Source: an uncultured bacterium
GTDB taxonomy: Bacteria > Babelota > Babeliae > Babelales > Vermiphilaceae
Direction of reading: 5' to 3'
Assembly: GCA_963702025.1 (NCBI GenBank)
Contig: OY969699.1
Coordinates: forward strand, 192,001-256,000
DNA: 64,000 nucleotides
Below, in pieces: positions 541-64,000 of the stretch. Position numbers and translations under genes: made by a program. Each line of letters opens with the position of its first letter. The first letter of the stretch is position 1. The notes under the pieces are model-generated. The model did not search any database. It had not been told where the DNA came from and was given only the letters and a program-made list of their open reading frames with translations.

Positions 541-1656
541 TTAAAAAAGAGAGCACTCCTCCTTTTTTTCTTTTCTTTTAACCTTTGCTTCTTGAGCAAG
601 AAGAGTTTTGCAATCCCAAATTCTTACTCCTTTTTCGGTATACGAACCAAATGCCAACTCTTGACCATTAGGGCTAAATGTTAACGAGCCAGCTTCGTGG
701 CTTGCATTCTTATTGCTCGTGCTCGCCCTTATTAATTTTGCTGGCTGGTTTCCGGACAAGTCAGCAAGGAGCAAGTTTCCATCATCGATGCTCGCTGCAA
801 AAATTGTTTGTTGATTTGGGGCAGGGTTAATGGCAAGTGCAATGGCGGATACTTTTTTCTCGGGGGCATTAGAAAGCGCCGCTGAAATCTTAGAGCCTCT
901 TGGTGATTCCTTTTTGCCTTCTAGATTGTATACCGCTAATAATGCGGTACTACTTGCATCATAGACCTTAATATGTGACGAACAGGCAAGAAGCTTGTTA
1001 CCATTCTCAGCATAGGCAATTTTTAACTGGCCATCGCGGTCCTTTAAAGAATAATAAGCATAATCTCTTCTGCTATCCCATATTTTTACTGTGTCGTCTG
1101 CTGCACAGGTAGCGAAATGTTCCGGTTCAACAGGATGCCATTTAACTGCATGGATAGCACCTTCATGACCGTAAAATGCTCCTGCCTGTAATGTTTCTTT
1201 TTCGCGAATATCCCATATTTTTATCACACCATCTTTATAGCCCGCCAAAATGAGATTACCCTCTTTACTATAGTCCACTGCCGTTACCGGTACATTATCC
1301 TGCATCTCCCTGATGCATGCACCTTTTTCAATATCCCACATTTTAATTTTGTCATGGTCTCCGGTGGCATATTTCAATTCCCGTGGATCGGTGGCTAGTG
1401 CGACAACCGGACCGGTATTTATCCCGTCTGCTAAGCAGCTATTTTTAGCATTTCGTTTCCAAACTTTAATGGGAGAATTATTTAACTTATTATCATTGTA
1501 AGTGCCTGCAATAATGTAGGAGCCGTCATAACTATATGCCACCGATTCAACTGGGTAATTTGATTCTAAAAACGTCTTGGCCAAAGGCTCCATACACAAA
1601 ACTGCCAAGTGCGCCCAACACAACAAGCAATACATAAGAATTAAGAAATAGTTCAT
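541..1656 (-). CDS. Secreted WD40-repeat protein with C-terminal CaaX box (CSLF)
   Basis: N-terminal hydrophobic signal; repeated IKVW/IKMWD/IKIWD/VKIWD/VRIWD units and a GH motif; ends KVKRKEKKEECSLF. Confidence 0.88.
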   Translation of the reverse strand: MNYFLILMYCLLCWAHLAVLCMEPLAKTFLESNYPVESVAYSYDGSYIIAGTYNDNKLNNSPIKVWKRNAKNSCLADGINTGPVVALATDPRELKYATGDHDKIKMWDIEKGACIREMQDNVPVTAVDYSKEGNLILAGYKDGVIKIWDIREKETLQAGAFYGHEGAIHAVKWHPVEPEHFATCAADDTVKIWDSRRDYAYYSLKDRDGQLKIAYAENGNKLLACSSHIKVYDASSTALLAVYNLEGKKESPRGSKISAALSNAPEKKVSAIALAINPAPNQQTIFAASIDDGNLLLADLSGNQPAKLIRASTSNKNASHEAGSLTFSPNGQELAFGSYTEKGVRIWDCKTLLAQEAKVKRKEKKEECSLF

Positions 1657-1728
1657 CGCAGATCCTTTAAACCATGTTAAAAGAAATTATACTGTTAACC
1701 TTATCAAACTAATTTCATGAGTCAAAAC

Positions 1729-2187
1729 TTAGAATTTATAGCGCCCACGCAGCTCACGAGACGTCTCTCTTTTGATATCGCGCTCTTTGATGGTCTCTTT
1801 TTTATTCGCTGCTTTTTTGTGCTTCGCAACACCCAATTCTACCTTTGCAAAATTTCGGTCATTAAAATAGATCTTAAGAGGAACTATGGTAACTCCTTTA
1901 CGGGAAATATCACCGATGATGCGATTGATTTCTTTACGATTCAAAAGAAGCTTACGGCTTCGCGTAGCGTCCTCTTTTTTAGCTTGAAATGCTTGGGTGT
2001 AGGGAGTTATATTGCAATTTAATAAAAATAACTGTCCATCATGAACGGTGGCAAATGAGCCGATAAGTGATACTTTACCCGCCCGCAATGATTTAACTTC
2101 GTCACCCGTTAATACAATGCCTGCTTCTAATCGTTCAAGAATTTCATAATCAAAAAATGCTTTTTTGTTCTGTGCAACAACTTTCAT
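1729..2187 (-). CDS. smpB: SsrA-binding protein SmpB
   Basis: NKKAFFDY, EAGIVLTGDEVKSLR, RKLLL, basic C-terminal tail. Confidence 0.97.
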   Translation of the reverse strand: MKVVAQNKKAFFDYEILERLEAGIVLTGDEVKSLRAGKVSLIGSFATVHDGQLFLLNCNITPYTQAFQAKKEDATRSRKLLLNRKEINRIIGDISRKGVTIVPLKIYFNDRNFAKVELGVAKHKKAANKKETIKERDIKRETSRELRGRYKF

Positions 2188-2199
2188 ATTTGTACCAAT

Positions 2200-2655
2200 T
2201 TATTGTCGAATGACACGATGGAAAAAATGGAGTAACAATGGGTATGCAATAAGCGCGACGGCCAAACCAAGAACATGGCCGCCAATAAGAAATGCCCACA
2301 AAGAAAGGTTGGGTATCCCGAGGCAGGCGAGCTTCACATTGAGCCAGTTCATCCAGGTGGGATTATAGGCAAATAGATCAATGCCCAGCTGACGCGCAAT
2401 AAAAGTTCCTACGGCATAGTCTGCCAAATAAATAGGCACCATGGTGAGTGGGTTATTAACCACGTGTGCTGCCGCATACATCACCCCAAAGTTAAGGCGA
2501 AAGGCCCAGGCAAAAATAATGGTCAAGAGCCAATGAATCCCAAGAAGGGGGGAAAAAGCAATAAAAATCCCGAAGGATGAAGCAAGTGCAAGCTTTTGGG
2601 GGGTCCGCTCACCCAAAATCAACTGCTTACCAGTGTGGATCATTTTCTTTATCAT
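2200..2655 (-). CDS. DUF2062-family membrane protein
   Basis: TPQKLALASSFGIFIAFSPLLG and NPLT motifs; several TM segments. Confidence 0.8.
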   Translation of the reverse strand: MIKKMIHTGKQLILGERTPQKLALASSFGIFIAFSPLLGIHWLLTIIFAWAFRLNFGVMYAAAHVVNNPLTMVPIYLADYAVGTFIARQLGIDLFAYNPTWMNWLNVKLACLGIPNLSLWAFLIGGHVLGLAVALIAYPLLLHFFHRVIRQ

Positions 2656-2761
2656 TTTTACAACGCCAGAATTAAGAAATTTATTTTAATGTGAAAAAAT
2701 TTGCTTTTGGTATAGTATATCCTAAAGTTAGTTTAATACGCTAGGATATAGGATTGCTTAT

Positions 2762-7809: not shown

Positions 7810-7998
7810 CGCAATCCTTATTATTCGTTACTATGTGAATTATTTTTTTTTAGACAAGGCTATTATGGTTCTAGTATGGATAGATCAGCAAAAAAGTCAA
7901 TATCGAGTTTACAAATCCCTAAAAAAGGCTATGCTTTATGATAAGCAAATTATAATAAAAAGTTGCAAATTTGGCGCTATAAACGGAGGCCAATGCTC

Positions 7999-8691
7999 AT
8001 GAAAAAAGTTGCTCTACTTTTAAATAGTCTTCTCTTCTTAACCAATTCCTTTTCTCTTGAACCAGGCAAAGCACCGCTGGTAAAAGCTGCTGCCGACTCG
8101 ATTTTATTGAATGCGGCAAAAAAAGGTGAATCCCAGCAAATTAAACGCATTCTCGATCATAAAAATGATCCTGATATTCGGGATTCAAATGGCGTAACAC
8201 CCTTAATGTTTGCCTCATATTTTGGATACACTCCCATAGTCCAGATGCTCTTGGCCGCCCGCGCAAACTGTAATCTCGCTACGCATTCAAATAACGCATT
8301 TTCTTTTGGCAAACTGCTCTCAAATAAAAATAGTGGTACCACCGCATTAATGCTTGCGGCATTTTGTGGAAAAATAGAAATCGTTTTGGCACTCTTAAAA
8401 TCCGGCGCTAATCCAAATGCCGTTGATAGTGATGGCCAAACAGCTTTAACGTATGCTATTTTAGCTGATAAAGAATGGCCACATGCGCCGCTGCATGAAT
8501 CGCGCAAAAGGATTATCAAACTACTTCTTGATTTTGGCGCTAATCCAAATATTTGTGATAAAAACGGATTGAATCCTGCCTACTATTATTCTTGTGTGGC
8601 GGGCCTTGTTCCCGGTTTTGGCGTTCGAGGATTCGATACTGATCCAGAAGTTGCGGAGAATGATCCTTTATATAAACGAATGAAATGGTAA
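7999..8691 (+). CDS. Secreted ankyrin-repeat protein
   Basis: GVTPLMFAS, GTTALMLAA, GQTALTYA, GANPN units; signal peptide; start chosen by GGAGG spacing. Confidence 0.88.
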   Translation: MKKVALLLNSLLFLTNSFSLEPGKAPLVKAAADSILLNAAKKGESQQIKRILDHKNDPDIRDSNGVTPLMFASYFGYTPIVQMLLAARANCNLATHSNNAFSFGKLLSNKNSGTTALMLAAFCGKIEIVLALLKSGANPNAVDSDGQTALTYAILADKEWPHAPLHESRKRIIKLLLDFGANPNICDKNGLNPAYYYSCVAGLVPGFGVRGFDTDPEVAENDPLYKRMKW

Positions 8692-8701: not shown

Positions 8702-9448
8702 ATGAAGCAAACCTTTCTTATTTTAACATTGACTACCTATTTGGGAGTTCATGCAATGGAAAGCAATAAAAAACACCCATCCCCATCAGTTTGGGTTTGG
8801 AGCCCTGAAATAGAGAAAGCGCTTGAAATAGCAGCTCAATGGCATGATGGCACATATCGGAAAGGATTGAGTTCGCATCAACCAGCATTTATGTTGCCTA
8901 ACCAAGAAAGTCCTAAAGTTCCGGTCATAACACATTTGGCCGGTGTTGCTATGATATTACTAAGAACAGGATGGGATGATGAAACGGTAGCTGCAGGGCT
9001 TTTGCATGATACACTTGAAGATGCAAATAAAGCCCAACAAAATTTAAGCAAAACAGCACTAGAAGAAGCGGTTGGTAAAAATATTGCAAATATTGTCGCA
9101 GAAGTATCCGAGCAAAAAACCGATAGCTCCGGCGCTAAACTCAGCTGGAAAGAACGCAAAGAAGCCTATATAGCTCATCTAAAAGAAACCGGCAATTTTA
9201 GAGCGGTAGCAGTAAGTTTAGCCGATAAAATTAATAATATCCGTACCATGAATAATACTATTGCAGCAGGCATTAATCCTTTTAAAGCATCAACCGATAG
9301 AGAAGCGCTCAAAGCGGGCCCCGCTGAACAGATTTGGTATTTCACATCAGTCATCGAAGCTTCTGTGCGGTTTGATGATTCTCGCCTAAAACCATTGCGC
9401 GAAACATTGTCGCAGGAATTAACTCGTTTTAAAGATCTCACAAAATAA
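8702..9448 (+). CDS. HD-domain hydrolase (Mesh1/small alarmone hydrolase-like) with signal peptide
   Basis: HLAGVA, AGLLHDTLED, WKERK, LADKINN; N-terminus MKQTFLILTLTTYLGVHA. Confidence 0.82.
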   Translation: MKQTFLILTLTTYLGVHAMESNKKHPSPSVWVWSPEIEKALEIAAQWHDGTYRKGLSSHQPAFMLPNQESPKVPVITHLAGVAMILLRTGWDDETVAAGLLHDTLEDANKAQQNLSKTALEEAVGKNIANIVAEVSEQKTDSSGAKLSWKERKEAYIAHLKETGNFRAVAVSLADKINNIRTMNNTIAAGINPFKASTDREALKAGPAEQIWYFTSVIEASVRFDDSRLKPLRETLSQELTRFKDLTK

Positions 9449-12984: not shown

Positions 12985-13542
12985 CTAAGCGGTGGCAAGT
13001 TTCTTGTAAATTTCTTTTGCTACTGATGGCGATACATAATCCTTCGCGTCTTTAAATTGTGCCTCAGGCAATGCTTGACCACCAATTTTTGTTAATCTAT
13101 AAATAGTAGCTTGTAATAAACTTTTTTCAACTCCAAGCGACTTCAACTCTTTGTAGCCAAATTCGCGCGCGCCAAATGTTTCAATAATTTTTTTTAATAA
13201 CAATTCATCGCCGTGACCAATAACTGAACTGGCAAAAACAAATTCGTAATGGCCCAACTGCCACAAAATTGCCTTGGGTATGTTGTTACGCATTTCCAAA
13301 AAGAATCCTTGGGATGTTTGGCTTTCATCCGGCTTGCAACATTCAGGCCGACGCAAATCAAGGGTAACAGCTTTTCCCGAATGCTCTTTTTTTATAGATT
13401 CTGCTAAATCGATAATTTTATTTTTAATATTTATTACTATCTTATAATCTTCAAGATAGATGCGATCCGATGCCTCTTTTTCTTCCATAGCACACGCAGC
13501 AAGATTCAATATGCTCAAAAAATAGATTAATCTTTTCATCAT
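12985..13542 (-). CDS. Hypothetical exported protein (possible lipoprotein)
   Basis: Signal peptide ending LAACA-MEE; AGGAG RBS. Confidence 0.7.
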   Translation of the reverse strand: MMKRLIYFLSILNLAACAMEEKEASDRIYLEDYKIVINIKNKIIDLAESIKKEHSGKAVTLDLRRPECCKPDESQTSQGFFLEMRNNIPKAILWQLGHYEFVFASSVIGHGDELLLKKIIETFGAREFGYKELKSLGVEKSLLQATIYRLTKIGGQALPEAQFKDAKDYVSPSVAKEIYKKLATA

Positions 13543-35317: not shown

Positions 35318-36369
35318 GGGGTAGATCCTCTTGGTGCAGGAGTTGTTGGCTGCTTGCCTGCCGCAGATCCGGCCTGTTGGCCCGGTTTACCATTTTGATC
35401 AACTGCCCCCACTAATTCTTTAAGCTTTCCAAGCAAACGCGAACCTTCTTTTCGTTCCGCTTCAATTTCTGAACGTATTGGTATCTTCAAAGAAAAGCTC
35501 CTACTTTTTTTCTTGGGCAAATCCCACAAAGCAACAGTAAATTCTACCAGTTGTGGCACCACCGGTAACCTCTGCTTGCTTTCATCTTCTCCCTCTTTTT
35601 TTTCCAACCATTCAGCAACTTTTTTTATTTCTTTCTTTTTGCTCTCTTTTTTTTGCGCCGCCTCTTTTTTTGCCGCCTCCGGCTGAGTAGCTCCTGGCTT
35701 AGGCGTTTCTTGTTCTTTTTGTTCTTGTAACACCGCAGTATATTCAACCGATAATGATTTTATACCGCGCACCATTTCATATTCTTTAGCGGTTTCTTTG
35801 TTGTCGAGCGCATTAATATCAAGCTTAGCCGATTCTTGCCGGATAAGCGCATAGGATTTAGCAGGATTTTTTGGTGTCGGTTTTTCTTCTTTTAAAAGAT
35901 ACCGCACGCGAATAACACGCGGTTTTGCTGAACCTGATTTGGCGCCCCAATATATTTGCAAAGGATTGGTGGTAATAAATGTTAGTTGGTCGAGCATGCC
36001 CCCTTTATTGGTGCTATAAAAAAGTTTTTCTAAGGGCCTTTGCTGTTTTGCTTGCGCGCCCGGTGCTGCATTTTCTTCTGCTTGTTCTTCTTCCGCTTCT
36101 TTCTTTTGGTCCGGTTTTGGGGTAGCAGCATTTTTTTGTTGTGGTTTTTTTTGACGGAGATACCACTCATTGGGGGCGGTAACTCCCGAAAGATCCCGCT
36201 CAAACTGCGCATTGAGCAGCGCGGCATTCTCATAAATTGCCGTTGTTGAATCAATCACCGGCACAAAGCGATTAATTTGATAGATAGCACTCATTAAAAG
36301 ACCACTTAAAATTGAAGCAATTAATGAGGCAATTAATAATTCAACGAGACTAAACCCCGGATTTTTCAC
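35314..36369 (-). CDS. gspJ: Type II secretion minor pseudopilin GspJ-like
   Basis: PG|FSLVELL prepilin site; QFERDL; gene order. Confidence 0.75.
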   Translation of the reverse strand: MKNPGFSLVELLIASLIASILSGLLMSAIYQINRFVPVIDSTTAIYENAALLNAQFERDLSGVTAPNEWYLRQKKPQQKNAATPKPDQKKEAEEEQAEENAAPGAQAKQQRPLEKLFYSTNKGGMLDQLTFITTNPLQIYWGAKSGSAKPRVIRVRYLLKEEKPTPKNPAKSYALIRQESAKLDINALDNKETAKEYEMVRGIKSLSVEYTAVLQEQKEQETPKPGATQPEAAKKEAAQKKESKKKEIKKVAEWLEKKEGEDESKQRLPVVPQLVEFTVALWDLPKKKSRSFSLKIPIRSEIEAERKEGSRLLGKLKELVGAVDQNGKPGQQAGSAAGKQPTTPAPRGSTP

Positions 36370-36901
36370 TGCTGGACTCCGGCTTATAGATAAAACTTAC
36401 CAAACGTTCTTGTTTTTTGCTCTGCGTTTGCGGCGCCTGAATTGTTACGCTTTGGATCAGCACATTTTTAAATTTTTTAAGCGCAGAAGAATCAGGTATT
36501 TTTTTAAGTTCATATTTTAAGGTGATCCCTTCATCACTCTTTTTACTTGTTGTAAATGTTTGCGCTTCGGGTGCAAGATTAAATTCCGTATCAATTAAAA
36601 ATTTTTTTGCCGCCAGAATTCCCCCAAAAGCTCTGCGCGCACGCGAAACACTGCGAGAAATAGCCGATTGCCCGTTAAAAATGGGCGTGAGCACCAAGCC
36701 GATGATGGCCATTGCCAGGAGCACTTCGATTAAGGTGAAACCATTGCGTGACCCCGCTCGCCCTGAGTGCGAGTGCAACGAGCGTATCGAAGGGTCATAA
36801 TTCGGCATAGTTCGATACGCCGCTTTGAGGTGGATTTTGTCCTGAGCGCCGTCGAAGGGCACTACGAGCGGAGATGTTACCTTATTTTTGAAAACTATCA
36901 T
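36350..36901 (-). CDS. gspI: Type II secretion minor pseudopilin GspI-like with a repeat-expanded leader
   Basis: NG|FTLIEVLLAMAI; ATG 36901 overlaps the end of gspH and gives a 54-aa leader. Confidence 0.72.
   Translation of the reverse strand: MIVFKNKVTSPLVVPFDGAQDKIHLKAAYRTMPNYDPSIRSLHSHSGRAGSRNGFTLIEVLLAMAIIGLVLTPIFNGQSAISRSVSRARRAFGGILAAKKFLIDTEFNLAPEAQTFTTSKKSDEGITLKYELKKIPDSSALKKFKNVLIQSVTIQAPQTQSKKQERLVSFIYKPESSSEKSGV
36754..36871. repeat. Nested REP-like palindromic element inside the gspI leader
   Basis: Outer IR ccgctcg/cgagcgg; inner IR gcgtatcgaa/ttcgatacgc; shares cgctcg-nnn-tgagtgcga...gagcgtatcgaa with 15636-15680. Confidence 0.8.
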
Positions 36902-37442
36902 ACACCGTAAACTGCGCGGTAAAAGGGTTGAGCACCAAACCAAATTGCCGTGGTTTTCCTGCCGTATTTTTTTGTTTTTTATCAATAAAATTAATAGTCA
37001 CGTTTTGCGTTAACCCATCCGGCACAATAAAAAAATAACTTGCTATAGTTTTTTCGCTTGTTGACCGTGCCTTTTCATCAAATCCTTCGATAATAAAATT
37101 TTTAATCTCTATATTTGATGGAATGGCGAGTGATGTATTAAGATATGCCCCTTTAATCGGGGCAGTTTCGGGCGGCCCGTTATCTTTGAATCGCACAACA
37201 TCACTCACCGAAACAATATTCTTTTTAAAATCAAACTCCACCTGCTGAGTTTTACGCTCAACAAGCGCGCGGTGCCACGCAAATCGCGTTAATGCATTGA
37301 GTTTCCCCAAAAATACTTGGCGCTCTCTGCGTGGCAGTAATTTACTAAAATTAGGTACAACTACCGCAGTCATTAACCCAATAATAGCAACAACAATCAG
37401 GATCTCTATTAAAGTAAATCCATTCTTATTGCTTCCAAGCAT
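36882..37442 (-). CDS. gspH: Type II secretion minor pseudopilin GspH-like
   Basis: NG|FTLIEILIVVAIIG; FFIVPDG near the C-terminus. Confidence 0.75.
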   Translation of the reverse strand: MLGSNKNGFTLIEILIVVAIIGLMTAVVVPNFSKLLPRRERQVFLGKLNALTRFAWHRALVERKTQQVEFDFKKNIVSVSDVVRFKDNGPPETAPIKGAYLNTSLAIPSNIEIKNFIIEGFDEKARSTSEKTIASYFFIVPDGLTQNVTINFIDKKQKNTAGKPRQFGLVLNPFTAQFTVYDSFQK

Positions 37443-37872
37443 CTATCCACTCAGATTTTGGTGTACCTTTACCCCGTTTGCTTCCATAGGAATAAAGCTC
37501 AAACGGATGCTCGCCGCCTTCAGTTGGCTCATAGTGGAACGGTTTATTCCAACCATCTTTTGGTACTTCTCCCTTTTTGGCAGTAATATAGGGGCCGTCC
37601 CAACTTTCAGCAATTTTCTCATCGGCAGGCTTTTTTATCAAATCAACTAAGTTATGTGGATACTCACCCGTATCATCATTATAGGCTTCGATCCGATCTC
37701 TAATAAACTTTAAGCTCAATGCGGTGCTCTTTTTACGATTCGATTCTAGAATGCCTTGCACGGAATAGGTAACTATTCCTCCCAAAATCATCACGAGCGC
37801 TGCCGCGATTAAAATTTCTACCAATGTAAAACCATTTTGTGCATGTTTTTGCTTTTCAATATAAATCATCAA
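37426..37872 (-). CDS. gspG: Type II secretion major pseudopilin GspG
   Basis: NG|FTLVE; YxxDTGEYP, WDGPYI, PKDGWNKPFHY, LYSYG. Confidence 0.88.
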   Translation of the reverse strand: MMIYIEKQKHAQNGFTLVEILIAAALVMILGGIVTYSVQGILESNRKKSTALSLKFIRDRIEAYNDDTGEYPHNLVDLIKKPADEKIAESWDGPYITAKKGEVPKDGWNKPFHYEPTEGGEHPFELYSYGSKRGKGTPKSEWIDAWKQ

Positions 37873-37874
37873 TT

Positions 37875-39089
37875 TTACTCCTCGGTAAATGCAGCCTGTT
37901 GAATCATTGGCAGCATTAATGAGATAACAATAAACCCAACAATAACCGCCATTACAATCAGCAATGCCGGCCCAATTTTTGCCGATAAACTATCAGCGTA
38001 TTCTCCCAATTCCTCCTCATAGTTCCTAGCAACCGTTAACAACATCTGATCTAACTGTCCGCTTTGTTCACCGGTACTAATTAAATAAATAGCGATCGGA
38101 GGAAACAAATTTGTCTGCTTAAGATACTGTGCAATTTTACCCTGTTTAATAATTTTATCACGCGCTTCTCGCAGCGCATCGGCAAGGATGCGATTGTCTA
38201 TAATATTAACCACAATATCAAGTGATTCGGCCAGATTAACGCCACCTTCTAAAAGCATTCCCAGCGTATAACAAAACTGCACAATCGCATTGGTACGCGT
38301 AAAATACCCGATTATGGGCAATTTTAATTTGATTGTGTCAATCATACGCGCACCGGTTGGCGTTGATCGCCACCAGCGATACCCAACTATACCAAGTATC
38401 AAAAGGGTGGCAACGATCCACAGATATTTAGTAAACAATGATGATATGCCCAACAAGATTTTAGTGGTAGCCGGAAGCTCTTTACCGCTTGATGCAAAAT
38501 TTTCGGCCATCGAGGGCACTACAAAAATAAGCAAAACACTTATTACTATAACCGCAACAATTAATTGGATAATCGGCCCGGTTAATGCTGAACGAACGCG
38601 TTTTCTAATTTCTGCACGCCGCTCAAGATAGGCGGTTAACCTTTCAAGGATAACTTCTAATTTGCCGCTCGCTTCCCCTGCGCGAACAAGCTGAACGTAA
38701 ATATTATCAAATACTTTAGGATATTTTTTAAGCGCGTCAGCAAATGAAATACCCTCTTTTACTTCATCTTTAATATTTACGAGCATGGTGCGCAAGCTGC
38801 CCTCAAACTGCTCAATCAAAAGTTCAAGCGCCTGCAATAATGGCACCCCCGATTTGAGGAGCACCACAAGTTGCCGCGTGAATAAGATTTTTTCTTTTGG
38901 GGTAATCTTTGGCGAAAACAAACGCTTCCACCAGGGCATTGATGCTTCGGGTGAACTCAAAGTAACCGAAATCGGATAAATACCCTGTTTGCTCAGTTGT
39001 TCTTTGGCACTTTGCAAGGTTGGCGCGTCAATGGTGCCGGTAATTTTCTTGCCGTCCTTTGCAAATGCTTGGTACAAATACAATGCCAT
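37875..39089 (-). CDS. gspF: Type II secretion inner-membrane platform protein GspF/PilC
   Basis: FTRQLxxLLKSGVPL, AGEASGKL, GEQSGQLD; duplicated T2SSF domains. Confidence 0.92.
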   Translation of the reverse strand: MALYLYQAFAKDGKKITGTIDAPTLQSAKEQLSKQGIYPISVTLSSPEASMPWWKRLFSPKITPKEKILFTRQLVVLLKSGVPLLQALELLIEQFEGSLRTMLVNIKDEVKEGISFADALKKYPKVFDNIYVQLVRAGEASGKLEVILERLTAYLERRAEIRKRVRSALTGPIIQLIVAVIVISVLLIFVVPSMAENFASSGKELPATTKILLGISSLFTKYLWIVATLLILGIVGYRWWRSTPTGARMIDTIKLKLPIIGYFTRTNAIVQFCYTLGMLLEGGVNLAESLDIVVNIIDNRILADALREARDKIIKQGKIAQYLKQTNLFPPIAIYLISTGEQSGQLDQMLLTVARNYEEELGEYADSLSAKIGPALLIVMAVIVGFIVISLMLPMIQQAAFTEE

Positions 39090-39189
39090 GGTAAAATATC
39101 CTTTATTAAACAGGATTTGACGCCTGAGCATAAGTGTGATTCAATGAAAAACTATAGACCTTTTATGCATCATATCTAAAAGGACAATT

Positions 39190-40158
39190 ATGAAAAACCA
39201 TTTACATTTCAGTATAATCATTGCCATTTTTCTTGCTAGCTGCACAACCCTCATCGGTACTACTAGTCATAATGCAAAAGTTGCGGATAATCAACTTCCT
39301 CATCCAACTACCCTGAGAAGCATTGATTTTACTCGATCGGTTTTTGCCGAGGGAGTGGTCCCTTTCTTTACCAACGTTTTTAATAACCCCCTGTATGCCA
39401 AAGATTTTTTACCCAATAATATCCATTTTCATCTGCTTGAGTTTCTTCATCAGGGAAATGCGTTGGGCAAAGATAGTGTCTATGTGCGATCCGTTTTACG
39501 TCTTTTTTATAACAAGCTCAAAGCATTGCCTTATGTGAATGCCTATAGTTTCGGTGAGCTTCTTTCCCAATTACCCGATGCGCTCGAACGCCATTTTGCT
39601 ATCGATACCCAACAAGTTCTTGGTTCACTTAAAAATATAATCTATGAAATCCAATACCATGCATTTATGGCTAATTTTGCAGAATTCAAAACAAAACCGG
39701 AAACATTTTTGGGCAATTTATCACAACAACTTGAAAATGCAGCAGAACTGAGAAAGCTGATAGTGCTTCTTCTTGAAACATCAATCGATCGTTTGATTTG
39801 GGTCCCTTCTGATCAATTTGAAACGTGGCAGCAAGTTAAAACCATTTCTCATCTTCTTGCCATTCTTCACGAAAGAACGATTATCGGTGATCTTGAAGAT
39901 TTAAATAGTTTGTATGTCGCACTCATTGAACGTTATTGCTATTTTCTTGATGTTGCGGGAAAACATATCGATAGCGAAACCTACCAAAAGATCCGCCTTG
40001 ATATTCAAAAAGATCAGTTGCCATTGCTCACCCTTGAAGAACAGCAGGAATATATTGAAACCAAACTGCAACGATTAAGCCGTTGCCTGTTTGAGCTTGA
40101 AAGCAAATCATTGGCCTGCGAATCAGGGATTCTTATTAAAAGTCAACCGAGAGCATAA
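39190..40158 (+). CDS. Hypothetical helical exported protein
   Basis: AAGGA RBS; signal or lipobox-like N-terminus (FLASC). Confidence 0.7.
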   Translation: MKNHLHFSIIIAIFLASCTTLIGTTSHNAKVADNQLPHPTTLRSIDFTRSVFAEGVVPFFTNVFNNPLYAKDFLPNNIHFHLLEFLHQGNALGKDSVYVRSVLRLFYNKLKALPYVNAYSFGELLSQLPDALERHFAIDTQQVLGSLKNIIYEIQYHAFMANFAEFKTKPETFLGNLSQQLENAAELRKLIVLLLETSIDRLIWVPSDQFETWQQVKTISHLLAILHERTIIGDLEDLNSLYVALIERYCYFLDVAGKHIDSETYQKIRLDIQKDQLPLLTLEEQQEYIETKLQRLSRCLFELESKSLACESGILIKSQPRA

Positions 40159-41395
40159 AACCGACGGTGGTAAAGGCAATTGATCGTTTACCGCCAAATG
40201 GTAGTCGTGCAAAAAGTGATGCTTGGGGTACGATACAGGGATCCATTTGACATGCAGAAAAATCATAACTCAGATTAAATTCAGCAGAATGCACGATCCA
40301 TTCATCAAGACTTATTGCCGTATTGGCAATAGTACTTGAATAATCACAGCTATTGAGCGCCAAATGATCTTCGCCTTTCTTTAAAAATTGATACCCAACC
40401 AAGAAAGATACTCCGGCAATATTATAGGCCTGCACAAAAAGATTAAATCGTTGCATAAGACCATAATCGGTATATGCTGGTGTTTTTGCCAAGAGTAATA
40501 GATCGGTCTGATCTATGGAAGTTTTTATGCGCCGTTCACGGGTATTGCCAAAAAGATGGAGCAACTGCACATCAAAACCGGCCTTGAAATAATCCCCCAG
40601 AGTTACGCTTAATCCACCGCCATACACAATGCCAACGGCACCATTATAGCCAAATGGGAAGGCCATAAGTTTATCAACATCTTGTTTAAGACCGGTGGGA
40701 AAAGTAAAGCCGACGCGCCCTCCAACATCCACATTTTTTAGAAATTGTCTATTTTTTTGAGGAAAATCAAACATAAATTCCAACAGTAAATTTAAATCGC
40801 CCGGACCGGTTCGCTTCCATCCATTCAAATCAAGCCCGTCACCCAACTGATCAATAACCTGCGTAAGCCTGCTGGTTAATAAATTCCTAACCCGAAAATC
40901 GGCAGGCGTTTTTAGTTGCGTTCTATCGATAAAACCAACATCGGTTAAGCGCACACGGTAAAATGGTAAAAAGGTGGTAAACCACGCATGGGGCAAGAAA
41001 TACCAACGCGCACCAATTACTGCACCTAAATCCAAATGCAACTTGCCGTCAAACATAAGAGTGCCGCGTACATCGTCATTAATAGCATGCAATTGATCGC
41101 CCAACAATGATTGAGGACTGTTGTTAGGAAATCCCTTTAACATAGCAAGAGCATCCTGAAAAGGGTTCCAGATATTAAGCACGTTCACAATATTGCTGTC
41201 ATCACCATAGCCACGCGCAGGACGGACGCCGGTCTCTGCCCATAGGGTTAACTCGTAGCACCGGTCAAGATGCACTTCGGGAATAAGCAAGGTATCATAG
41301 GGGCGCATAAGCAAATTCATGCTGAATGAAACGGCTGGAAAAGATGTAGCCACTACTAAAAAAATTTTTATTACACTAGAAAAATTCCTCGTCAT
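40136..41395 (-). CDS. Putative outer-membrane beta-barrel protein
   Basis: Signal peptide, alternating amphipathic strands, C-terminal GFMLSVDF ending in Phe. Confidence 0.6.
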   Translation of the reverse strand: MTRNFSSVIKIFLVVATSFPAVSFSMNLLMRPYDTLLIPEVHLDRCYELTLWAETGVRPARGYGDDSNIVNVLNIWNPFQDALAMLKGFPNNSPQSLLGDQLHAINDDVRGTLMFDGKLHLDLGAVIGARWYFLPHAWFTTFLPFYRVRLTDVGFIDRTQLKTPADFRVRNLLTSRLTQVIDQLGDGLDLNGWKRTGPGDLNLLLEFMFDFPQKNRQFLKNVDVGGRVGFTFPTGLKQDVDKLMAFPFGYNGAVGIVYGGGLSVTLGDYFKAGFDVQLLHLFGNTRERRIKTSIDQTDLLLLAKTPAYTDYGLMQRFNLFVQAYNIAGVSFLVGYQFLKKGEDHLALNSCDYSSTIANTAISLDEWIVHSAEFNLSYDFSACQMDPCIVPQASLFARLPFGGKRSIAFTTVGFMLSVDF

Positions 41396-41423
41396 GAAGC
41401 AATCCTACTTAATCCAATTAATG

Positions 41424-50381: not shown

Positions 50382-50894
50382 ATCAATATAAAGTCACTTC
50401 TTTTACTCAGCCTGCCACTAACCATTTTGTGCTCCGCAGCCGGCGCCATGCAAGATGAGCAACATCAACTTTCACCACAATCAATCCCTGAGCATAGCGT
50501 TTGTCTCGATCCCTCATTTGCGGATGATGAAGTTCTTAATCACCTGATTTACAAAGACCTAAATAAACAAGAACCGAGCCGTTTCGATAAAATCATTGCT
50601 TTAGCAAAAGGTCTAGATAACTCCCTGGATTTCGATGAGACCTATTATAAGTATCCAAAGAATACCAAAGAAGAAAAAGAGTTAGTTGAAAAACAAGATT
50701 TTAGAATTCCTCTTCGTCATCACATCAGGCTCATACTTAAATTAGCCAAACAAAAGAATAGCGATGATCTCACTATACTAGAAAATGCCATACTTAGCCT
50801 TCCTCCATATAAAATAAAATATCTGATACACAAAAGCCACATCGAGCGTCTTTCCGAATTGGCACCACCAAACGTGACTATGATAATTGCTTAG
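50382..50894 (+). CDS. Hypothetical exported protein (start uncertain: ATC 50382 or TTG 50427)
   Basis: In-frame signal peptide begins at ATC after AAGGA; followed by AGA-MQD. Confidence 0.55.
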   Translation: MNIKSLLLLSLPLTILCSAAGAMQDEQHQLSPQSIPEHSVCLDPSFADDEVLNHLIYKDLNKQEPSRFDKIIALAKGLDNSLDFDETYYKYPKNTKEEKELVEKQDFRIPLRHHIRLILKLAKQKNSDDLTILENAILSLPPYKIKYLIHKSHIERLSELAPPNVTMIIA

Positions 50895-51146: not shown

Positions 51147-51221
<75 letters not shown>

Positions 51222-51661: not shown

Positions 51662-52126
51662 ATGTTGATTATTTTTATCGCAATTGCTTTATGTCCTCAT
51701 ATTTTACACAGCATGGAAGAGCATGATAGAAACGCGCAATCAAGTAGCATCATGATTAAACAATCATCCGACAAAACATCGCCGGCCCATTCGCCGCTGG
51801 AACCTTCAGCACTCACTAATAAAATAAAACAACAACAGTTTGAGATAAACCATACCGTTGATACTATAACAAATCAGGCCACCAAATGGCTCTACGATGC
51901 TCAAGTTGATTCGGATAGTGAATTGGGCGATCCGGAAATCAGATATTATATTGAAGATATTTGGAAAGAAAATTATAAACAGATTATCGAAAAAATAATA
52001 AAGGATCCTAAGACTAATATTGAGGATACGCAAATAGCGTTAGAACTTGTTTCTCATACCGCACAACTTGCAATTTTTCTCAATAAAATATCCAACTGGC
52101 ATTCGCAAAAAAAAACTATTAAATAA
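51662..52126 (+). CDS. Hypothetical exported protein
   Basis: AAGGAG RBS; signal peptide followed by MEE. Confidence 0.7.
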   Translation: MLIIFIAIALCPHILHSMEEHDRNAQSSSIMIKQSSDKTSPAHSPLEPSALTNKIKQQQFEINHTVDTITNQATKWLYDAQVDSDSELGDPEIRYYIEDIWKENYKQIIEKIIKDPKTNIEDTQIALELVSHTAQLAIFLNKISNWHSQKKTIK

Positions 52127-52152: not shown

Positions 52153-52605
52153 TCATCTCCTCAAGCGCATTTTTGGAGATAATTGCATTATCATGAGGCC
52201 GGCAACATACGTAAAAAGCCCTCCTATGGCAACCATCTCAGCAGTGCATAGAGGAGAGATTGGGCTCACATAATCGGGATTCAAACAAATATTCTCCGCA
52301 GGCAAATCAAATAACTTTTCACATCCATCGGCAAACAGCGTTGAATAGGCCACAAGTACACCTGCTCCAGAAACGCTCAATCCAGCCGCAGCAAAGGGAT
52401 CAGTTTTAATGGTGTCTTTTATTTTTTCATAAAGGGTTAATTGTTTATTATTGCTAGTCACTATTGCTTTTTCTTCATCATATTCGGGATCTTGAGCAGC
52501 ATAATGGTAAATTTTTCTGGTTCGTCTCTTTTTGCCTTCAAGCCTCATCGCATCAAGCTGAGTAACGCAAATATAACCTAAGAGTATTGCTAAAAACCAT
52601 TTCAT
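52153..52605 (-). CDS. Hypothetical exported protein with basic stretch and two TM segments
   Basis: Signal peptide LDA-MRL; KKRRTRK. Confidence 0.65.
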   Translation of the reverse strand: MKWFLAILLGYICVTQLDAMRLEGKKRRTRKIYHYAAQDPEYDEEKAIVTSNNKQLTLYEKIKDTIKTDPFAAAGLSVSGAGVLVAYSTLFADGCEKLFDLPAENICLNPDYVSPISPLCTAEMVAIGGLFTYVAGLMIMQLSPKMRLRR

Positions 52606-54675: not shown

Positions 54676-55224
54676 ATGATATTTGTATTGTTTGGTTTGG
54701 CCACACTCATTTTTTTGCCTCTTTTTTCAATGGAGTTTCCTACCAATGGTAAGAATATTGAAAAAGTAACAAGAAAAGCAGAGTCATTGACCGAAAAACT
54801 AACCAGGTTACAAACAGCTATATCCGAAAAGCTGCAGTTAACAGTGTCAAACGTAAAAGCCGAACACTACAATAAATGCAATGAATATATCGAGGATAAC
54901 CACCACGAAAAATTTTCTATGATTATTGGCTGGACAACGAACAAAAAGATAGTGGAATATTTACCTGCTTTTGAAAAAAATGTGGCAACTCTTATCGAAT
55001 TTGAGCAAGAACTGGCCAAAAATGAAACAAAATTATTGCAGGATCCTGAAAATCTCTATGAAGCAAACCAAAGAAATGATTTACTTGCAAAAATTAATTC
55101 GAACGACAATCAGTTGCTTGAAACGGTAATAACATTGATGTGCTACCATGAAGTGCGGCAAGCAGAACAGCTTATTAAAATTCAACGTAGGGCAAATCAG
55201 CCGATTATTAATACCAAGCCTTAG
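54676..55224 (+). CDS. Hypothetical exported helical protein
   Basis: GGAG RBS; signal peptide followed by MEF. Confidence 0.7.
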   Translation: MIFVLFGLATLIFLPLFSMEFPTNGKNIEKVTRKAESLTEKLTRLQTAISEKLQLTVSNVKAEHYNKCNEYIEDNHHEKFSMIIGWTTNKKIVEYLPAFEKNVATLIEFEQELAKNETKLLQDPENLYEANQRNDLLAKINSNDNQLLETVITLMCYHEVRQAEQLIKIQRRANQPIINTKP

Positions 55225-57235: not shown

Positions 57236-57970
57236 ATGTACTATAACAAAAAAACATATCTCTTAGTATTGGCAACACTATCTTTGACCAGTATGGAACC
57301 AGATCTTCCAAAGCTATCACCCAAAACGCAAGAAGCGCTCGATGCTTTTCAGGGAAATGATTCATTTAATATTCAAGGTGCCGGATCCCCTAACAAACAT
57401 TTTTCGCCCGATACCTCAGATAAACCGCTAAAAAAACGAAAGCTGGAATTTACCGAACAATTATCTGGACGCCTTGAACAATTGCACAAAGATACAAAAA
57501 GAGACCTTGCAGAGCTTTGTAATGCAGAATGCGATAAGTTCTTTGGTCAATTGAAAAATTTAATCGTGCTCAAATCACATGCAAACAAAGAAACACAAGA
57601 CTATGAAATTAAAGAAATTGCCGAAAAGACCCTCGCCAATAATCAGGCAATTTTGTTACTGTTGAGCACAAACTATGCCACCTTGCACAGTGGAAGAGAA
57701 GAGTTAATGAAAAGCCAAAATCAGGAAGAAATTTTTAGTTCGAGCCCACTCTTTAACTTCATTTCAGAAAAACAGCGCAATAATACAAAAGAGATTTTTC
57801 AATTTCAGACCAGTGACATGTGCGCTCGCAATGCGATTAATTTTTTTAATAATCAATTATCCTCTACTCTCGTTGAAATTGCTAAAAGTGATTTATTACA
57901 ACAAAGAGAGGAAGACGACGAAGAAGAGTCTGAAAATAATAACTCTAGCCAACGAGCAAATAATCATTAA
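57236..57970 (+). CDS. Hypothetical exported protein, paralog 1
   Basis: Signal peptide followed by MEP; KPLKKRK; LHK...ECDKFF...FQFQ. Confidence 0.75.
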   Translation: MYYNKKTYLLVLATLSLTSMEPDLPKLSPKTQEALDAFQGNDSFNIQGAGSPNKHFSPDTSDKPLKKRKLEFTEQLSGRLEQLHKDTKRDLAELCNAECDKFFGQLKNLIVLKSHANKETQDYEIKEIAEKTLANNQAILLLLSTNYATLHSGREELMKSQNQEEIFSSSPLFNFISEKQRNNTKEIFQFQTSDMCARNAINFFNNQLSSTLVEIAKSDLLQQREEDDEEESENNNSSQRANNH

Positions 57971-57983: not shown

Positions 57984-58559
57984 ATGTATAGAAACCATAT
58001 AGTGCTTATGATTTTAGTAATCTTCCCCATAACTGCTATGGAATCCAAAAAAAGGGGTCCGGAGCAAGAGCTAGCCGAATCAAAAGAAAAAAAACAAAAA
58101 GGCGACAAATCTTCAGAAATTTTCGAGGAAATAAGAGTATTGCACAAAGAAATCAGCAAAGAATATCAGGGAAAATTTAAACAAGAGTGTGATAAATCGT
58201 TCGAAAGGATTATAGAACTCATTAAGATTCGCGATGCTCATGAGGATACGACTTCTTATTCCTTTCTCAGGGAAATTATTGAAATATTAAAACGAGAGAA
58301 TAGCCTAGCAATATCAATCCATGCAGAAACAGCAGAAAATAGTTTAAAAGCGTGGCATGGCAACATAAATATGAAAAAATATGAAGATTTAATTTGCGCC
58401 GAAAATTTGATTAATATGAACTTGGCCGAAGCAGAGCAACAAATAGATAAGCGTTTTCAATTACAAATAAGCCAGTTTTGTTATGAAAAAATTAGTATAG
58501 CTGCTAAAAGAAAAATCGCGTTTGAAATGATTGAAGAAGCGAAGAGGTATGAAGACTAA
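57984..58559 (+). CDS. Hypothetical exported protein, paralog 2
   Basis: AAGGAG RBS; signal peptide followed by MESKKR; LHK...ECDKSF...FQLQ. Confidence 0.75.
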   Translation: MYRNHIVLMILVIFPITAMESKKRGPEQELAESKEKKQKGDKSSEIFEEIRVLHKEISKEYQGKFKQECDKSFERIIELIKIRDAHEDTTSYSFLREIIEILKRENSLAISIHAETAENSLKAWHGNINMKKYEDLICAENLINMNLAEAEQQIDKRFQLQISQFCYEKISIAAKRKIAFEMIEEAKRYED

Positions 58560-61983: not shown

Positions 61984-62796
61984 ATGAATGCAATCAAAAA
62001 TAGCTTGATCGTAGCAATTTTTGCTTTAGTTTCGCCGCACACCAAGGGTATGGAAAAAAAGCGCCCGATGCAGGATTTAGCAAAACCAGAAAAGCGTCAC
62101 AAAACAAACCGAGAAAAAAATAAGGTAAACGATTTGGAAGAATTTGCTGCTTATGTTCAAAGAACGAGTAACATAAATGAAATAGACAGGCTTCATGGTA
62201 TGACAATGCTTCATTGGGCCGCCATGGAGAACCACGTTGAGAGGCTAAAAATATTGCTCGCTCATCCCCAATGCAATGTGAATGCAAAAAGCTTTTCGAC
62301 AGATACACCACTCCATTTTGCAATAAAATATGAGAGGGTGGAAATAGCAAAAATATTAATTACTCAGCCTCATTGCGATGTGAATGCGCTAACCAGTGAT
62401 AAATGGTCCCCTCTTTATACTGCCATTCGCCATAAACAACCAGAAATAGTAGCCTTACTGCTCGCTCGCCCCGAATGTAACCTGCACACCAAATGCGTCA
62501 TGGGCTGGTCGCCCCTTACTTTTGCAGCTCACACAAAACAGATTGAAATAGTAAAATTATTGCTTGCTCACCGAGAGCCTGATCAAAAAAATAAAGCCAT
62601 CCAAGCCTGCAAGGGCGATAAAACTATCTATTTTTCTCTTTTTCCTAATGATATTATTAACTTTTTATGCAGGCACTATTGCACCTTTTACAGCATTTCC
62701 GATAACCAAGCAAAACAAGTGACAGGAAAGCAATATGTTAAAAAAGAGATAAAAGAACTAATAATCGACCAGCTTAAAGCCCGAAATTCTAGATAA
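61984..62796 (+). CDS. Secreted ankyrin-repeat protein with NLS-like N-terminus and F-box-like tail
   Basis: GMTMLHWAA, TPLHFAI, SPLYTAI, SPLTFAA; signal peptide followed by MEKKR. Confidence 0.85.
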   Translation: MNAIKNSLIVAIFALVSPHTKGMEKKRPMQDLAKPEKRHKTNREKNKVNDLEEFAAYVQRTSNINEIDRLHGMTMLHWAAMENHVERLKILLAHPQCNVNAKSFSTDTPLHFAIKYERVEIAKILITQPHCDVNALTSDKWSPLYTAIRHKQPEIVALLLARPECNLHTKCVMGWSPLTFAAHTKQIEIVKLLLAHREPDQKNKAIQACKGDKTIYFSLFPNDIINFLCRHYCTFYSISDNQAKQVTGKQYVKKEIKELIIDQLKARNSR

Positions 62797-62835
62797 GAGC
62801 CCCAAAAAAGGGGTTTGCATCATCAAAAAAAATAA

Positions 62836-62898
62836 TTGACAAATATGAAATTTAATGCATAATTAGGGTATAAATAGTTTTTTTAGTTTTAAAGGAGG
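62836..62898 (+). promoter_or_regulatory. Putative sigma70 promoter and strong RBS
   Basis: TTGACA-16 nt-CATAAT; AAGGAGG 6 nt before the ATG at 62905. Confidence 0.55.
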
Positions 62899-62904
62899 TT
62901 ACCT

Positions 62905-64000
62905 ATGAATCTAGTCAAATATACCCTAATTTTAGCCCTTTTAGGCTCATTTTCATCTACTGCCTTTGGCATGGAGAAAAAGCGTTCTGGGGAAGAAATA
63001 AGCCCAGAAGAAGGCTGGAAATACCCAAGAAAAGAAATTAAGAAAGAATATAAGGATGATGATAGATTCTTTTATCCTTATCGAGAAGAAGAATCTACCC
63101 AAGCATTTCCTCAAGATGGCTCCGCACTTGGCGATGAGGAGACAATTGAACCTGAAGTGCAAGCGACTAATGATATCGATATAGATATAGCTATTCCCGA
63201 AATCGACACTTCAAGCAATAATAATGCGCTCCCACAAACTAGTGAAATGCAAGACTCTGCAGCTCCTGCGAATATCAGCCAATTAACCTTAGAAATGGGG
63301 AATTTGAGAGAATTCGTGGAGAAAAAATTCACCACAACGAGGAAGATTTTACAGACAATTACTGAACGAATACGTGAAGCAAATAACCAAATAGATATAA
63401 TGGCAAATGATGTTGCTGCTTTAAAAGCATTACAACCTAAGCTGCAGCCAATGCCACTCGCTTCTAACCTTAAGCCCGCGCCAAAAAAAGCTGCTGATAA
63501 AGTGCAGATGATAATGGTCCCGGGTCAAAAACCGGGAATGACCAAGTATGTCCCATCAACTGCTGCCGAGCCCAGGGAACTTCAATGGGTGCAATACCCA
63601 CAATCAGGGGCGGCCCAGTATATTCCACTTATTCCCATAGAAGCTGCATCAACCTATTATCCTCACAAGGATCATTTGCCACAATCAATTAATCCGGCTT
63701 CTGCTCAAAAACCGGCCGCACCTGCATCAAAACCTGCAGCACCTCAGAAAGCCCCCAATCTTCCGAGACCTGTTGCAAAACCAGCGGCACAATCATTCTT
63801 ACCTTTTGATCAAATTATTCCAGGCTATCGATCCACTCATCGATCAGACACATTAATAGAATGCGCAGAAAAAATTGAAGCTAATAATCGCGTTATCTTT
63901 AACTGGCTTTCGGATCTGAGTAAGGAAAAACGTCCTTTCCCTACTGAAAAAATAGCATGGTTCTCGCCTTTACAAATCTACCCAATTCAAACCGCCTACA
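62905..64000 (+). CDS. Exported low-complexity protein, truncated by the window end (absent from the ORF track)
   Basis: Open from ATG 62905 to the window end; MNLVKYTLILALLGSFSSTAFG-MEKKR, then acidic, coiled-coil and Pro/Ala-rich segments. Confidence 0.85.
   Translation, partial: MNLVKYTLILALLGSFSSTAFGMEKKRSGEEISPEEGWKYPRKEIKKEYKDDDRFFYPYREEESTQAFPQDGSALGDEETIEPEVQATNDIDIDIAIPEIDTSSNNNALPQTSEMQDSAAPANISQLTLEMGNLREFVEKKFTTTRKILQTITERIREANNQIDIMANDVAALKALQPKLQPMPLASNLKPAPKKAADKVQMIMVPGQKPGMTKYVPSTAAEPRELQWVQYPQSGAAQYIPLIPIEAASTYYPHKDHLPQSINPASAQKPAAPASKPAAPQKAPNLPRPVAKPAAQSFLPFDQIIPGYRSTHRSDTLIECAEKIEANNRVIFNWLSDLSKEKRPFPTEKIAWFSPLQIYPIQTAY

What the first reader, a model, noticed from the sequence alone, without database searches (positions are those of the whole stretch)
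541..64000. Candidate effector system: signal peptides that unmask a new Met-Glu/Met-Gln N-terminus
Seen: 14 mostly unrelated secreted ORFs have a Met right after the apparent signal-peptidase site, at residue 18-26. They are VLC|MEP (1656-), VHA|MES (8702), ACA|MEE (13542-), AYS|MQP (30788-), VNT|MQP (33079), SFS|MNL (41395-), AGA|MQD (50382), LHS|MEE (51662), LDA|MRL (52605-), LFS|MEF (54676), LTS|MEP (57236), ITA|MES (57984), TKG|MEK (61984) and AFG|MEK (62905). That is roughly half of the signal-peptide proteins in the window, and it includes both WD40 proteins, one ankyrin protein and the HD hydrolase. Established: Met is uncommon at +1 of SPase I substrates, and Met-Glu/Asp/Asn/Gln is the substrate rule of eukaryotic N-acetyltransferase NatB; 13 of the 14 fit it. 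Inference: the mature proteins mimic natively initiated host proteins (N-acetylation, N-degron avoidance), or the motif is a sorting tag for a second export step such as the T2SS here. An alternative is internal start codons giving cytoplasmic isoforms. I do not know of a description of this pattern.
Basis: partly seen in the sequence, partly recalled or inferred. Interest (0 to 1): 0.85.

Follow-up and report, generated by a model that had tools for sequence, protein, structure and literature searches.

The report
Methionine cap on exported parasite proteins
In this bacterium, from a group that parasitises protists, most exported proteins with eukaryote-like domains are predicted to begin with a fresh methionine plus glutamate or glutamine once their export signal is cut off, while its own envelope proteins mostly do not, which may shield them from the host's protein-disposal system and gives a sequence marker for likely effectors.

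Summary
Real and genome-wide. The genome is a Babeliales (TM6/Dependentiae) member. By my own heuristic (no SignalP), 344 of 701 soluble signal-peptide-like proteins have Met at the cleavage site, 240 followed by E/Q/D/N, 92 with Pro at +4; control bacteria give 8 of 98. It sorts by cargo: 109 of 122 ankyrin/WD40/LRR/ubiquitin/SET proteins, against 6 of 27 cleavable envelope proteins and 1 of 29 glycan enzymes. Internal starts are rejected: a ribosome-binding site precedes 1 of 344 second ATGs and 271 of 344 first. The motif is patchy in Babeliales (strong in 61 of 201 genomes) although GspG is nearly universal, and a weaker signal appears in unrelated ATP/ADP-translocase-bearing Pseudomonadota. 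Best reading (0.45): an N-terminus that escapes host N-degron and MetAP rules without needing NatB, which is co-translational. A PEXEL-like sorting tag (0.25) or relic start codons (0.15) remain open. Cleavage is predicted, not measured. My literature searches and the scan's notes showed no earlier description.

The parts
541..1656 (-). WD40 protein; signal peptide then VLC|MEPL, Met codon 1591-1593
   Evidence: blind rule prefers an upstream site
8702..9448 (+). HD_4 (RelA/SpoT-type) hydrolase; VHA|MESN, Met codon 8756-8758; three close homologues keep GVHA|ME across linker indels, distant homologues have no signal peptide
12985..13542 (-). no-family protein; ACA|MEEK, Met codon 13486-13488
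29511..30788 (-). WD40 protein; AYS|MQPF, Met codon 30732-30734
33079..33489 (+). no-family protein; VNT|MQPD, Met codon 33142-33144
40136..41395 (-). SFS|MNLL, Met codon 41318-41320; doubtful member, probably an outer-membrane barrel whose homologues lack the Met
50382..50894 (+). no-family protein with ATC start behind AAAGGA; AGA|MQDE, Met codon 50448-50450
51662..52126 (+). no-family protein; LHS|MEEH, Met codon 51713-51715
52153..52605 (-). no-family protein; LDA|MRLE, Met codon 52546-52548 (the one non-E/Q/D/N case)
54676..55224 (+). no-family protein; LFS|MEFP, Met codon 54730-54732
57236..57970 (+). no-family protein; LTS|MEPD, Met codon 57293-57295
57984..58559 (+). no-family protein; ITA|MESK, Met codon 58038-58040
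61984..62796 (+). ankyrin protein; TKG|MEKK, Met codon 62050-62052
62905..64000 (+). ankyrin protein running past the window end (555 aa); AFG|MEKK, Met codon 62971-62973
7993..8691 (+). counter-example: ankyrin protein with signal peptide and Leu-Glu-Pro in place of Met-Glu
34250..39131 (-). type II secretion gene cluster (GspF 37875-39089, GspG 37426-37869, pseudopilin 36882-37442; the rest by context); candidate second export step, not shown to read the motif

Best explanation
Host-directed proteins are exported by Sec and cut by the single signal peptidase I just before a Met, so the mature protein starts Met-[Glu>Gln>Asn/Asp]-x-(Pro). They then leave the periplasm, probably by the T2SS, and reach the protist cytosol. 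A protein arriving folded misses co-translational acetylation. Its N-terminus is therefore selected to be the class that eukaryotic N-degron pathways and MetAP leave alone: Met followed by an acid or amide residue. Envelope proteins never meet those pathways and are free at +1. Shown by computation: the motif, its cargo bias, the absence of internal ribosome-binding sites, one LepB. Inferred: the cleavage site, the T2SS route, arrival in the cytosol and the protective function.
For: Cargo bias: 109 of 122 eukaryote-like against 6 of 27 cleavable envelope proteins (p 8e-12); with E/Q/D/N 79 of 122 against 1 of 27; one vote per BLAST family 18 of 18 against 6 of 38 envelope plus glycan families. 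Non-ankyrin eukaryote-like proteins alone: 25 of 26. The +2 residue avoids both risky classes: small MetAP-type 57 of 344 (background 0.35), hydrophobic 21 (0.25), basic 26 (0.15), E/Q/D/N 240 (0.25). Met-lacking signal-peptide proteins have an Arg/N-degron-type +1 residue in 159 of 253 predictions. PMC11735805 section 9: unacetylated small residues, basic or hydrophobic residues, D/N/Q/E and Met-hydrophobic/basic termini are degrons, while no physical interaction of ligases with unacetylated NatB-type termini had been identified. Congeners shift among E, D and Q (MEKP here, MDKP/MDAP in L003, MQ in L001 and L004). The motif sits on 152 of 475 BLAST families with no shared signal-peptide cassette and genome-average codon use. 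All 5 of 401 genomes of an unrelated Pseudomonadota class with two or more profile matches carry a strong ATP/ADP translocase, against 0 of 3 single-match genomes tested and 3 of 401 in a phylum sample.
Against: No measured N-terminus, localisation or half-life. N-degron rules come from yeast, plants and animals, not protist hosts; the same review reports that NatB shields some substrates from UBR ligases. The rule does not explain E over D (172 to 15) or Pro at +4 (92 of 344 against 13 of 253). 10 of 28 ankyrin-rich Babeliales genomes have few profile candidates, and their secreted ankyrins often lack the Met or have another +2. 13 of 122 eukaryote-like proteins here lack it, and two PLA2, one RING and one HDAC protein with signal peptides lack it. 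The ortholog conservation test was inconclusive (+1 kept in 0.31-0.33 of pairs, other Met 0.23-0.29). The profile was trained on this AT-rich genome, and G854's hits were not read at sequence level. Babela grows inside a vacuole (PMC4378268), so a further membrane must be crossed.
Confidence: 0.45

Rival explanations
1. The mature Met-[E/Q/D]-x-Pro terminus is a sorting tag read by a bacterial export or translocation step after Sec (T2SS, vesicle loading or crossing the vacuole membrane), as the mature PEXEL N-terminus is in Plasmodium.
For: Four-residue consensus beyond degron logic: MEKP 21, MELP 19, MEMP 17 of 240. Sharp split by cargo. T2SS is reported as the only secretion system of Babela (PMC4378268) and lies in this window. 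xE/Q/D is the PEXEL remnant.
Against: GspG is in 29 of 31 relatives whether Met-rich or Met-poor. Met-poor families secrete ankyrins without it. G854 has 39 profile matches and no GspG match. T2SS substrates are generally recognised folded (recalled).
Confidence: 0.25
2. The Met is a relic: new effectors arise when a signal peptide is added upstream of an existing gene's start codon, and families then expand; the Met is tolerated, not selected.
For: In the HD hydrolase the Met lies about where signal-less homologues begin. Several normally cytoplasmic folds carry signal peptide plus Met (RNR, GNATs, PPDK_N). Conservation test inconclusive.
Against: Initiator +2 in this genome is E in 5.7% of 732 cytoplasmic proteins, against 50% after the second Met. 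Cytoplasmic-type enzymes that gained a signal peptide mostly lost the Met: glycan enzymes 1 of 29, others 7 of 23. GVHA|ME survives indels right behind it. No Kozak-like or cassette signal in the DNA.
Confidence: 0.15
3. The terminus is made to be acetylated by host NatB, or modified by a bacterial secreted GNAT, and the acetyl group gives the function.
For: The +2 set is exactly NatB's (PMC11735805). 14 GNAT proteins carry signal peptides.
Against: NatB acts co-translationally on the ribosome. Acetylated Met-Gln can itself be a degron. Other lineages use non-NatB +2 residues.
Confidence: 0.08
4. A lineage-wide preference of signal peptidase I (or of another protease cutting at or near this site), like a Q-rule with Met, unrelated to the host.
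For: One LepB with Thr where E. coli has Ile before the catalytic Lys; Leu common at -3 and Pro sometimes at -1.
Against: The same LepB serves envelope and glycan proteins that lack the Met (7 of 56). No extra peptidase in Met-rich genomes G000, G028, G436-G438.
Confidence: 0.05
5. The second ATG is an internal start that gives cytoplasmic isoforms.
For: 17 of 105 genes called at ME/MQ/MD had an in-frame signal peptide upstream, so the second ATG can be read as a start by a gene caller. The HD hydrolase has a GGAG-type 4-mer before it.
Against: Shine-Dalgarno 4-mer before 1 of 344 second ATGs, 271 of 344 first ATGs and 91 of 1464 deeper ATGs; mean start score -2.1 against 5.0. Fixed position behind a -3/-1 site.
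Confidence: 0.02

Closest known systems
Bacteroidetes Q-rule (PMC5837995, PMC10653852)
   Same: A lineage-specific residue exposed at +1 by signal peptidase I, linked to stability of the mature protein.
   Different: Gln rather than Met; covers most SPase I substrates including periplasmic and outer-membrane proteins; needs a periplasmic glutaminyl cyclase. Here the mark is biased to host-type cargo, has +2 and +4 preferences, is patchy within the order, and no modifying enzyme was identified.
Plasmodium PEXEL (RxL|xE/Q/D; bioRxiv 10.1101/2023.07.12.548774)
   Same: Proteolysis exposes a mature N-terminus with E/Q/D at +2 that marks host-directed cargo of an intracellular parasite.
   Different: Eukaryotic ER, plasmepsin V, upstream RxL, variable +1, acetylation and PTEX. 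Here -3/-1 is an ordinary SPase I site with no RxL and +1 is fixed as Met.
Eukaryotic NatB substrates and N-degron pathways (PMC11735805)
   Same: Met-Asp/Asn/Glu/Gln termini, resistant to MetAP.
   Different: There the Met is the initiator and acetylation is co-translational; here it is an internal residue unmasked after export.
Signal-peptide-bearing ankyrin effectors of Babela and Chromulinavorax (PMC4378268, PMC6561590)
   Same: Sec signal peptides on most ankyrin proteins (79 of 126; 78%), T2SS as the likely route.
   Different: The passages I read do not mention a residue rule after the signal peptide; 'methionine' occurs 0 times in either main text. Whether those two genomes carry the motif was not tested.

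Membership tests
Sec/SPase I substrate | Basic n-region, hydrophobic h-region, small residues at -1 and -3 | tested here: met
   Of 240 Met-E/Q/D/N proteins, -1 is A108 G57 S36 T14 C13 P12 (the rule required one of these) and -3 is L64 A46 I32 S24 T22 V22; blind rule gives Met as the top +1 residue
Sec/SPase I substrate | Measured cleavage before the Met | not testable with these tools
   No proteomics; SignalP is not on the machine
Sec/SPase I substrate | A canonical LepB in the genome | tested here: met
   One PF10502 match with Ser and Lys motifs aligned to E. coli LepB
Q-rule | Gln at +1 in most SPase I substrates | tested here: not met
   Blind +1: Met 155, Gln 31 of 583
Q-rule | Applies regardless of destination | tested here: not met
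   109 of 122 against 6 of 27
Q-rule | Dedicated periplasmic modifying enzyme | tested here: inconclusive
   No cyclase, MetAP or deformylase among 629 signal-peptide proteins scanned; 14 GNATs of unknown target
PEXEL/HT motif | RxL before the cut | tested here: not met
   -3 and -1 are aliphatic and small residues
PEXEL/HT motif | E/Q/D at +2 of the mature terminus | tested here: met
   E172 Q34 D15 of 344
PEXEL/HT motif | Mature terminus required for export | not testable with these tools
   Needs mutants
NatB substrate | Met-[DENQ] terminus | tested here: met
   240 of 344
NatB substrate | Initiator Met acetylated on the host ribosome | tested here: not met
   The Met is internal, with no start signal before it; acetylation itself not testable
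T2SS substrate tag | Co-occurs with T2SS across genomes | tested here: not met
   GspG in 29 of 31 relatives, motif patchy; G854 has matches and no GspG match

The most novel reading that the evidence does not exclude
Intracellular bacteria that export effectors through Sec have evolved, more than once, a 'second methionine' rule: signal peptidase unmasks Met-[E/D/Q]-x-Pro only on host-directed proteins, as a degron-proof cap or a short translocation address. It would be a linear effector mark for Sec/T2SS-type secretion, present in many Babeliales and in unrelated energy-parasite Pseudomonadota, and would flag about a fifth of this proteome, mostly genes of no known family, as effectors.
Probability: 0.45. 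Interest if true: 0.9.

Novelty: new variant of a known kind. Interest (0 to 1): 0.8.

Why it matters
Babeliales are widespread, barely cultured parasites of protists; 44% of Chromulinavorax proteins carry signal peptides and many have no known family (PMC6561590). There has been no way to tell effectors from envelope proteins among them. This mark separates the annotated classes well and extends to 212 of 448 unannotated signal-peptide proteins here. It also makes a general question testable: how proteins whose N-terminus is made by a bacterial peptidase survive eukaryotic N-degron surveillance. It warns annotators that the second Met is easily called as the start, which hides the signal peptide.

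Tried and rejected
Internal start codons: rejected. Mobile signal-peptide cassette: 4 of 55,350 cross-family pairs reach 60% identity, mean 14%. Kozak-like DNA signal: GCC before ATG 0.22 against 0.21 genome-wide. Dedicated second signal peptidase: not found in G000, G028, G436-G438. Ortholog and paralog conservation of the Met: inconclusive, 16 and 46 noisy pairs that include false members. DNA patterns as a survey tool: too much background, replaced by protein profile A1. A1 against 1.84 billion representatives gave 3 hits, uninformative for so short a profile. ESM Atlas on the first 32 residues: no usable hit; a second Atlas look did not place G334 below phylum. Orders of G334 and G243: 1-3 matches in 10 of 18 and 1 of 3 genomes; 16 of the 21 G334-order hits read were signal peptide plus Met, but they were picked by the profile and are near chance numbers, and direct samples of G334 and G243 gave 0 of 26 and 0 of 19; one G243-order hit looks like an outer-membrane protein. 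Sequencing runs: no RNA holder listed. G000's own TLC-family matches are modest (E 7e-24 and 4e-21). No structure or complex prediction was run, as none bears on the question. Chlamydiota, Legionellales and cultured Babeliales were not examined as named genomes.
Full report
Organism and method. The closest named SmpB loci are Candidatus Babeliales, Dependentiae or TM6 records, up to 83% identical, with closer ones labelled only as uncultured. The genome is one 1.6-Mb contig. SignalP and Prodigal are absent, so I wrote a gene caller (1543 genes) and a loose signal-peptide rule (701 soluble candidates of 1515 proteins of at least 70 aa). The rule admits false cases: 19 were clearly cytoplasmic by Pfam and some signal anchors remain. 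All cleavage sites below are predictions.

The observation. All 14 motifs are present. Genome-wide, Met peaks at positions 18-25 in signal-peptide-like proteins and not in the 704 others. Taking the first Met behind a small residue in the cleavage window, 325 of 701 proteins qualify, 28.6 times the Met background, while the other 19 residues score 1.7-7.5 times theirs; 19 more have Pro at -1, giving 344. A rule blind to +1 picks Met in 155 of 583. The consensus is [A/G/S]|M-E-[K/L]-P: +2 is E172 Q34 N19 D15 of 344 and +4 is Pro in 92 of 344 against 13 of 253 in Met-lacking proteins. The first-Met rule sometimes picks the wrong Met. Controls from seven Pseudomonadota samples give 8 of 98 Met and 3 of 98 Met-E/Q/D/N, so some 50-60 of the 344 may be chance.

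Cargo. I scanned 629 of the 701 with Pfam; the rest were ankyrin proteins located, whose list was cut at 150 rows. I assigned classes by hand from the Pfam names, knowing which batch was which. Ankyrin 84 of 96, WD40 11 of 11, LRR 8 of 8, ubiquitin-system 3 of 4, SET 2 of 2 and zinc finger 1 of 1 carry the Met (109 of 122). Envelope proteins: 9 of 46, glycan enzymes 1 of 29, GNATs 6 of 14, other cytoplasmic-type enzymes 7 of 23, unclassified 212 of 448. After dropping 19 lipoproteins, pilins and signal anchors by eye, envelope proteins give 6 of 27, and 1 of 27 with E/Q/D/N; with one vote per BLAST family the split is 18 of 18 against 6 of 38 (p 6e-10). BamA, amidases, NamZ, the S41 protease, SpoIID and surface adhesins lack it. 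Exceptions run both ways: 13 eukaryote-like proteins lack it, and an M15 dipeptidase, an S49 peptidase, OmpH, a BamD-like protein, an FKBP and an S74 protein are scored as having it, mostly without E/Q/D/N.

What it is not. Not an internal start, not a DNA signal and not a shared cassette. It spans 152 of 475 BLAST families. It is not simply a kept start codon, because initiator +2 is E in 5.7% of 732 cytoplasmic proteins and signal-peptide-bearing glycan enzymes lost their Met. The HD hydrolase shows both sides: its Met lies near the start of signal-less homologues, some named Bacteroidota, yet three close homologues keep GVHA|ME while the linker behind it changes length. A wider conservation test was inconclusive. 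One LepB serves both classes.

Range. Direct samples: G006 10 of 16, G009 8 of 21, G016 8 of 27, G017 8 of 18, G028 7 of 24, but G030 1 of 35, G023 3 of 22, G019 1 of 12, G022 1 of 15, G024 1 of 8, G020 0 of 3. A 30-column profile from 70 of this genome's N-termini (A1) found 148 and 126 matches in G000 and G017 (150 scored), 16 in G022 and 1 each in G030 and a Methylophilus genome. Over 201 phylum genomes, 61 have 20 or more matches of 40 scored and 64 have three or fewer; families f11 (9 of 9) and f19 (4 of 4) are rich, f1 (28 of 67), f3 (14 of 28) and f5 (3 of 8) mixed, and f12, f13, f6, f7, f4 and f15 have none at that level. Their ankyrins have either no Met or MH, MS, MT, MP, MK, ML, once ME. 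The profile favours E, so it under-counts such lineages. GspG is in 29 of 31 relatives.

Outside the phylum. 33 of 401 Pseudomonadota and 10 of 201 genomes of a Bacteroidia genome's phylum have a match at E 0.02, never more than two. In 401 genomes of the class of G334, five have two or more; all five carry a strong ATP/ADP translocase, while three top single-match genomes do not, and 3 of 401 did in the phylum sample. G854 has 39 matches at E 1 and no GspG match. Hits read in G334's order are signal peptide plus MD, ME or MQ on proteins I did not assign to families, but at near-chance numbers. That these are Holosporales- or Rickettsiales-like is my inference from the translocase. AT-rich composition is a confounder and G854's sequences remain unread, so convergence is a lead.

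Mechanism. The +2 residue avoids small residues, which MetAP would expose, and hydrophobic or basic ones, which form Met-type degrons. The review PMC11735805 (passages and section 9 part 1 read) lists nearly every other unacetylated terminus as a degron, names signal peptidases as a source of Arg/N-degrons, says NatB is co-translational, and says no physical link between unacetylated NatB-type termini and ligases had been found, though NatB shields some substrates. A folded protein arriving from a bacterium would thus be safest with Met-acid or Met-amide. This is inference. It does not explain E over D or Pro at +4, which may block exopeptidases (recalled) or belong to a sorting tag.

Comparison and literature. 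Closest are the Q-rule (PMC5837995: listing and passages; PMC10653852: abstract) and PEXEL (10.1101/2023.07.12.548774: abstract and Introduction); it is a member of neither. For Dependentiae I read passages of PMC6561590, PMC4776705 and PMC4378268; they report signal peptides and a T2SS, and 'methionine' occurs 0 times in their main texts. Searches showed no description of the motif; the library lacks most subscription papers, including any Dependentiae reviews outside it, and I did not open supplements (Babela Additional file 9 lists the secreted ankyrins). The scan's own notes gave nothing on it.

Verdict. A real, strong, cargo-selective N-terminal rule, apparently undescribed; function inferred. 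Interest 0.8.

Noticed in passing
window 50370-50384: The ORF has AAAGGA seven bases before an ATC codon that opens an intact signal peptide: a non-canonical start, a recent mutation or an assembly error.
   Followed up: partly
L151-L152, L102, L088 (G000 about 1,525,000-1,563,000; 498,000-503,000; 165,000-169,000): Normally cytoplasmic glycan enzymes carry signal peptides: two GDP-mannose dehydratases, UDP-GlcNAc 2-epimerase, UDP-glucose dehydrogenase, FkbM/TylF methyltransferases, sulfotransferases, six GT17 enzymes. 28 of 29 lack the Met, suggesting a glycan pathway moved out of the cytoplasm.
   Followed up: partly
L086:16921-17445, L130:14312-14929, L105:10810-11835, L136:1798-3630, L093:12737-16171: Nucleotide and DNA enzymes with N-terminal signal-like segments: NDK, adenylate kinase, ATP-dependent DNA ligase, ribonucleotide reductase (AQG|MEAQ) and a PPDK_N protein (IPG|MQGY).
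   Followed up: no
L118:669-1652 (lepB): Thr replaces the Ile just before the catalytic Lys of E. coli LepB (NLTKR against DYIKR); may relate to Leu at -3 and Pro at -1 in substrates (inference).
   Followed up: no
L092:1814-2773, L093:4285-5358, L148:61-726: Three ankyrin proteins have Cys where others have Met (LYP|CFAP, IKA|CYST, MYG|CARF); lipoproteins or a second small class.
   Followed up: no
window 40136-44447: A 419-aa probable outer-membrane barrel next to a 1007-aa secreted protein, both without Pfam match; a similar pair lies in G030 (L159).
   Followed up: partly
window 53-477 and 51147-51220: tmRNA near smpB, and a tRNA at the start of a run of Met-class genes.
   Followed up: no
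G000 genome-wide: 17 of 105 genes called at ME/MQ/MD have an in-frame signal peptide upstream, some without an ATG, so annotation will often clip these proteins at the second Met.
   Followed up: partly
G472, G553, G594, G557: Very large ankyrin loads (687-1047 first-look candidates) in family f3 genomes of 1.7-1.9 Mb.
   Followed up: no
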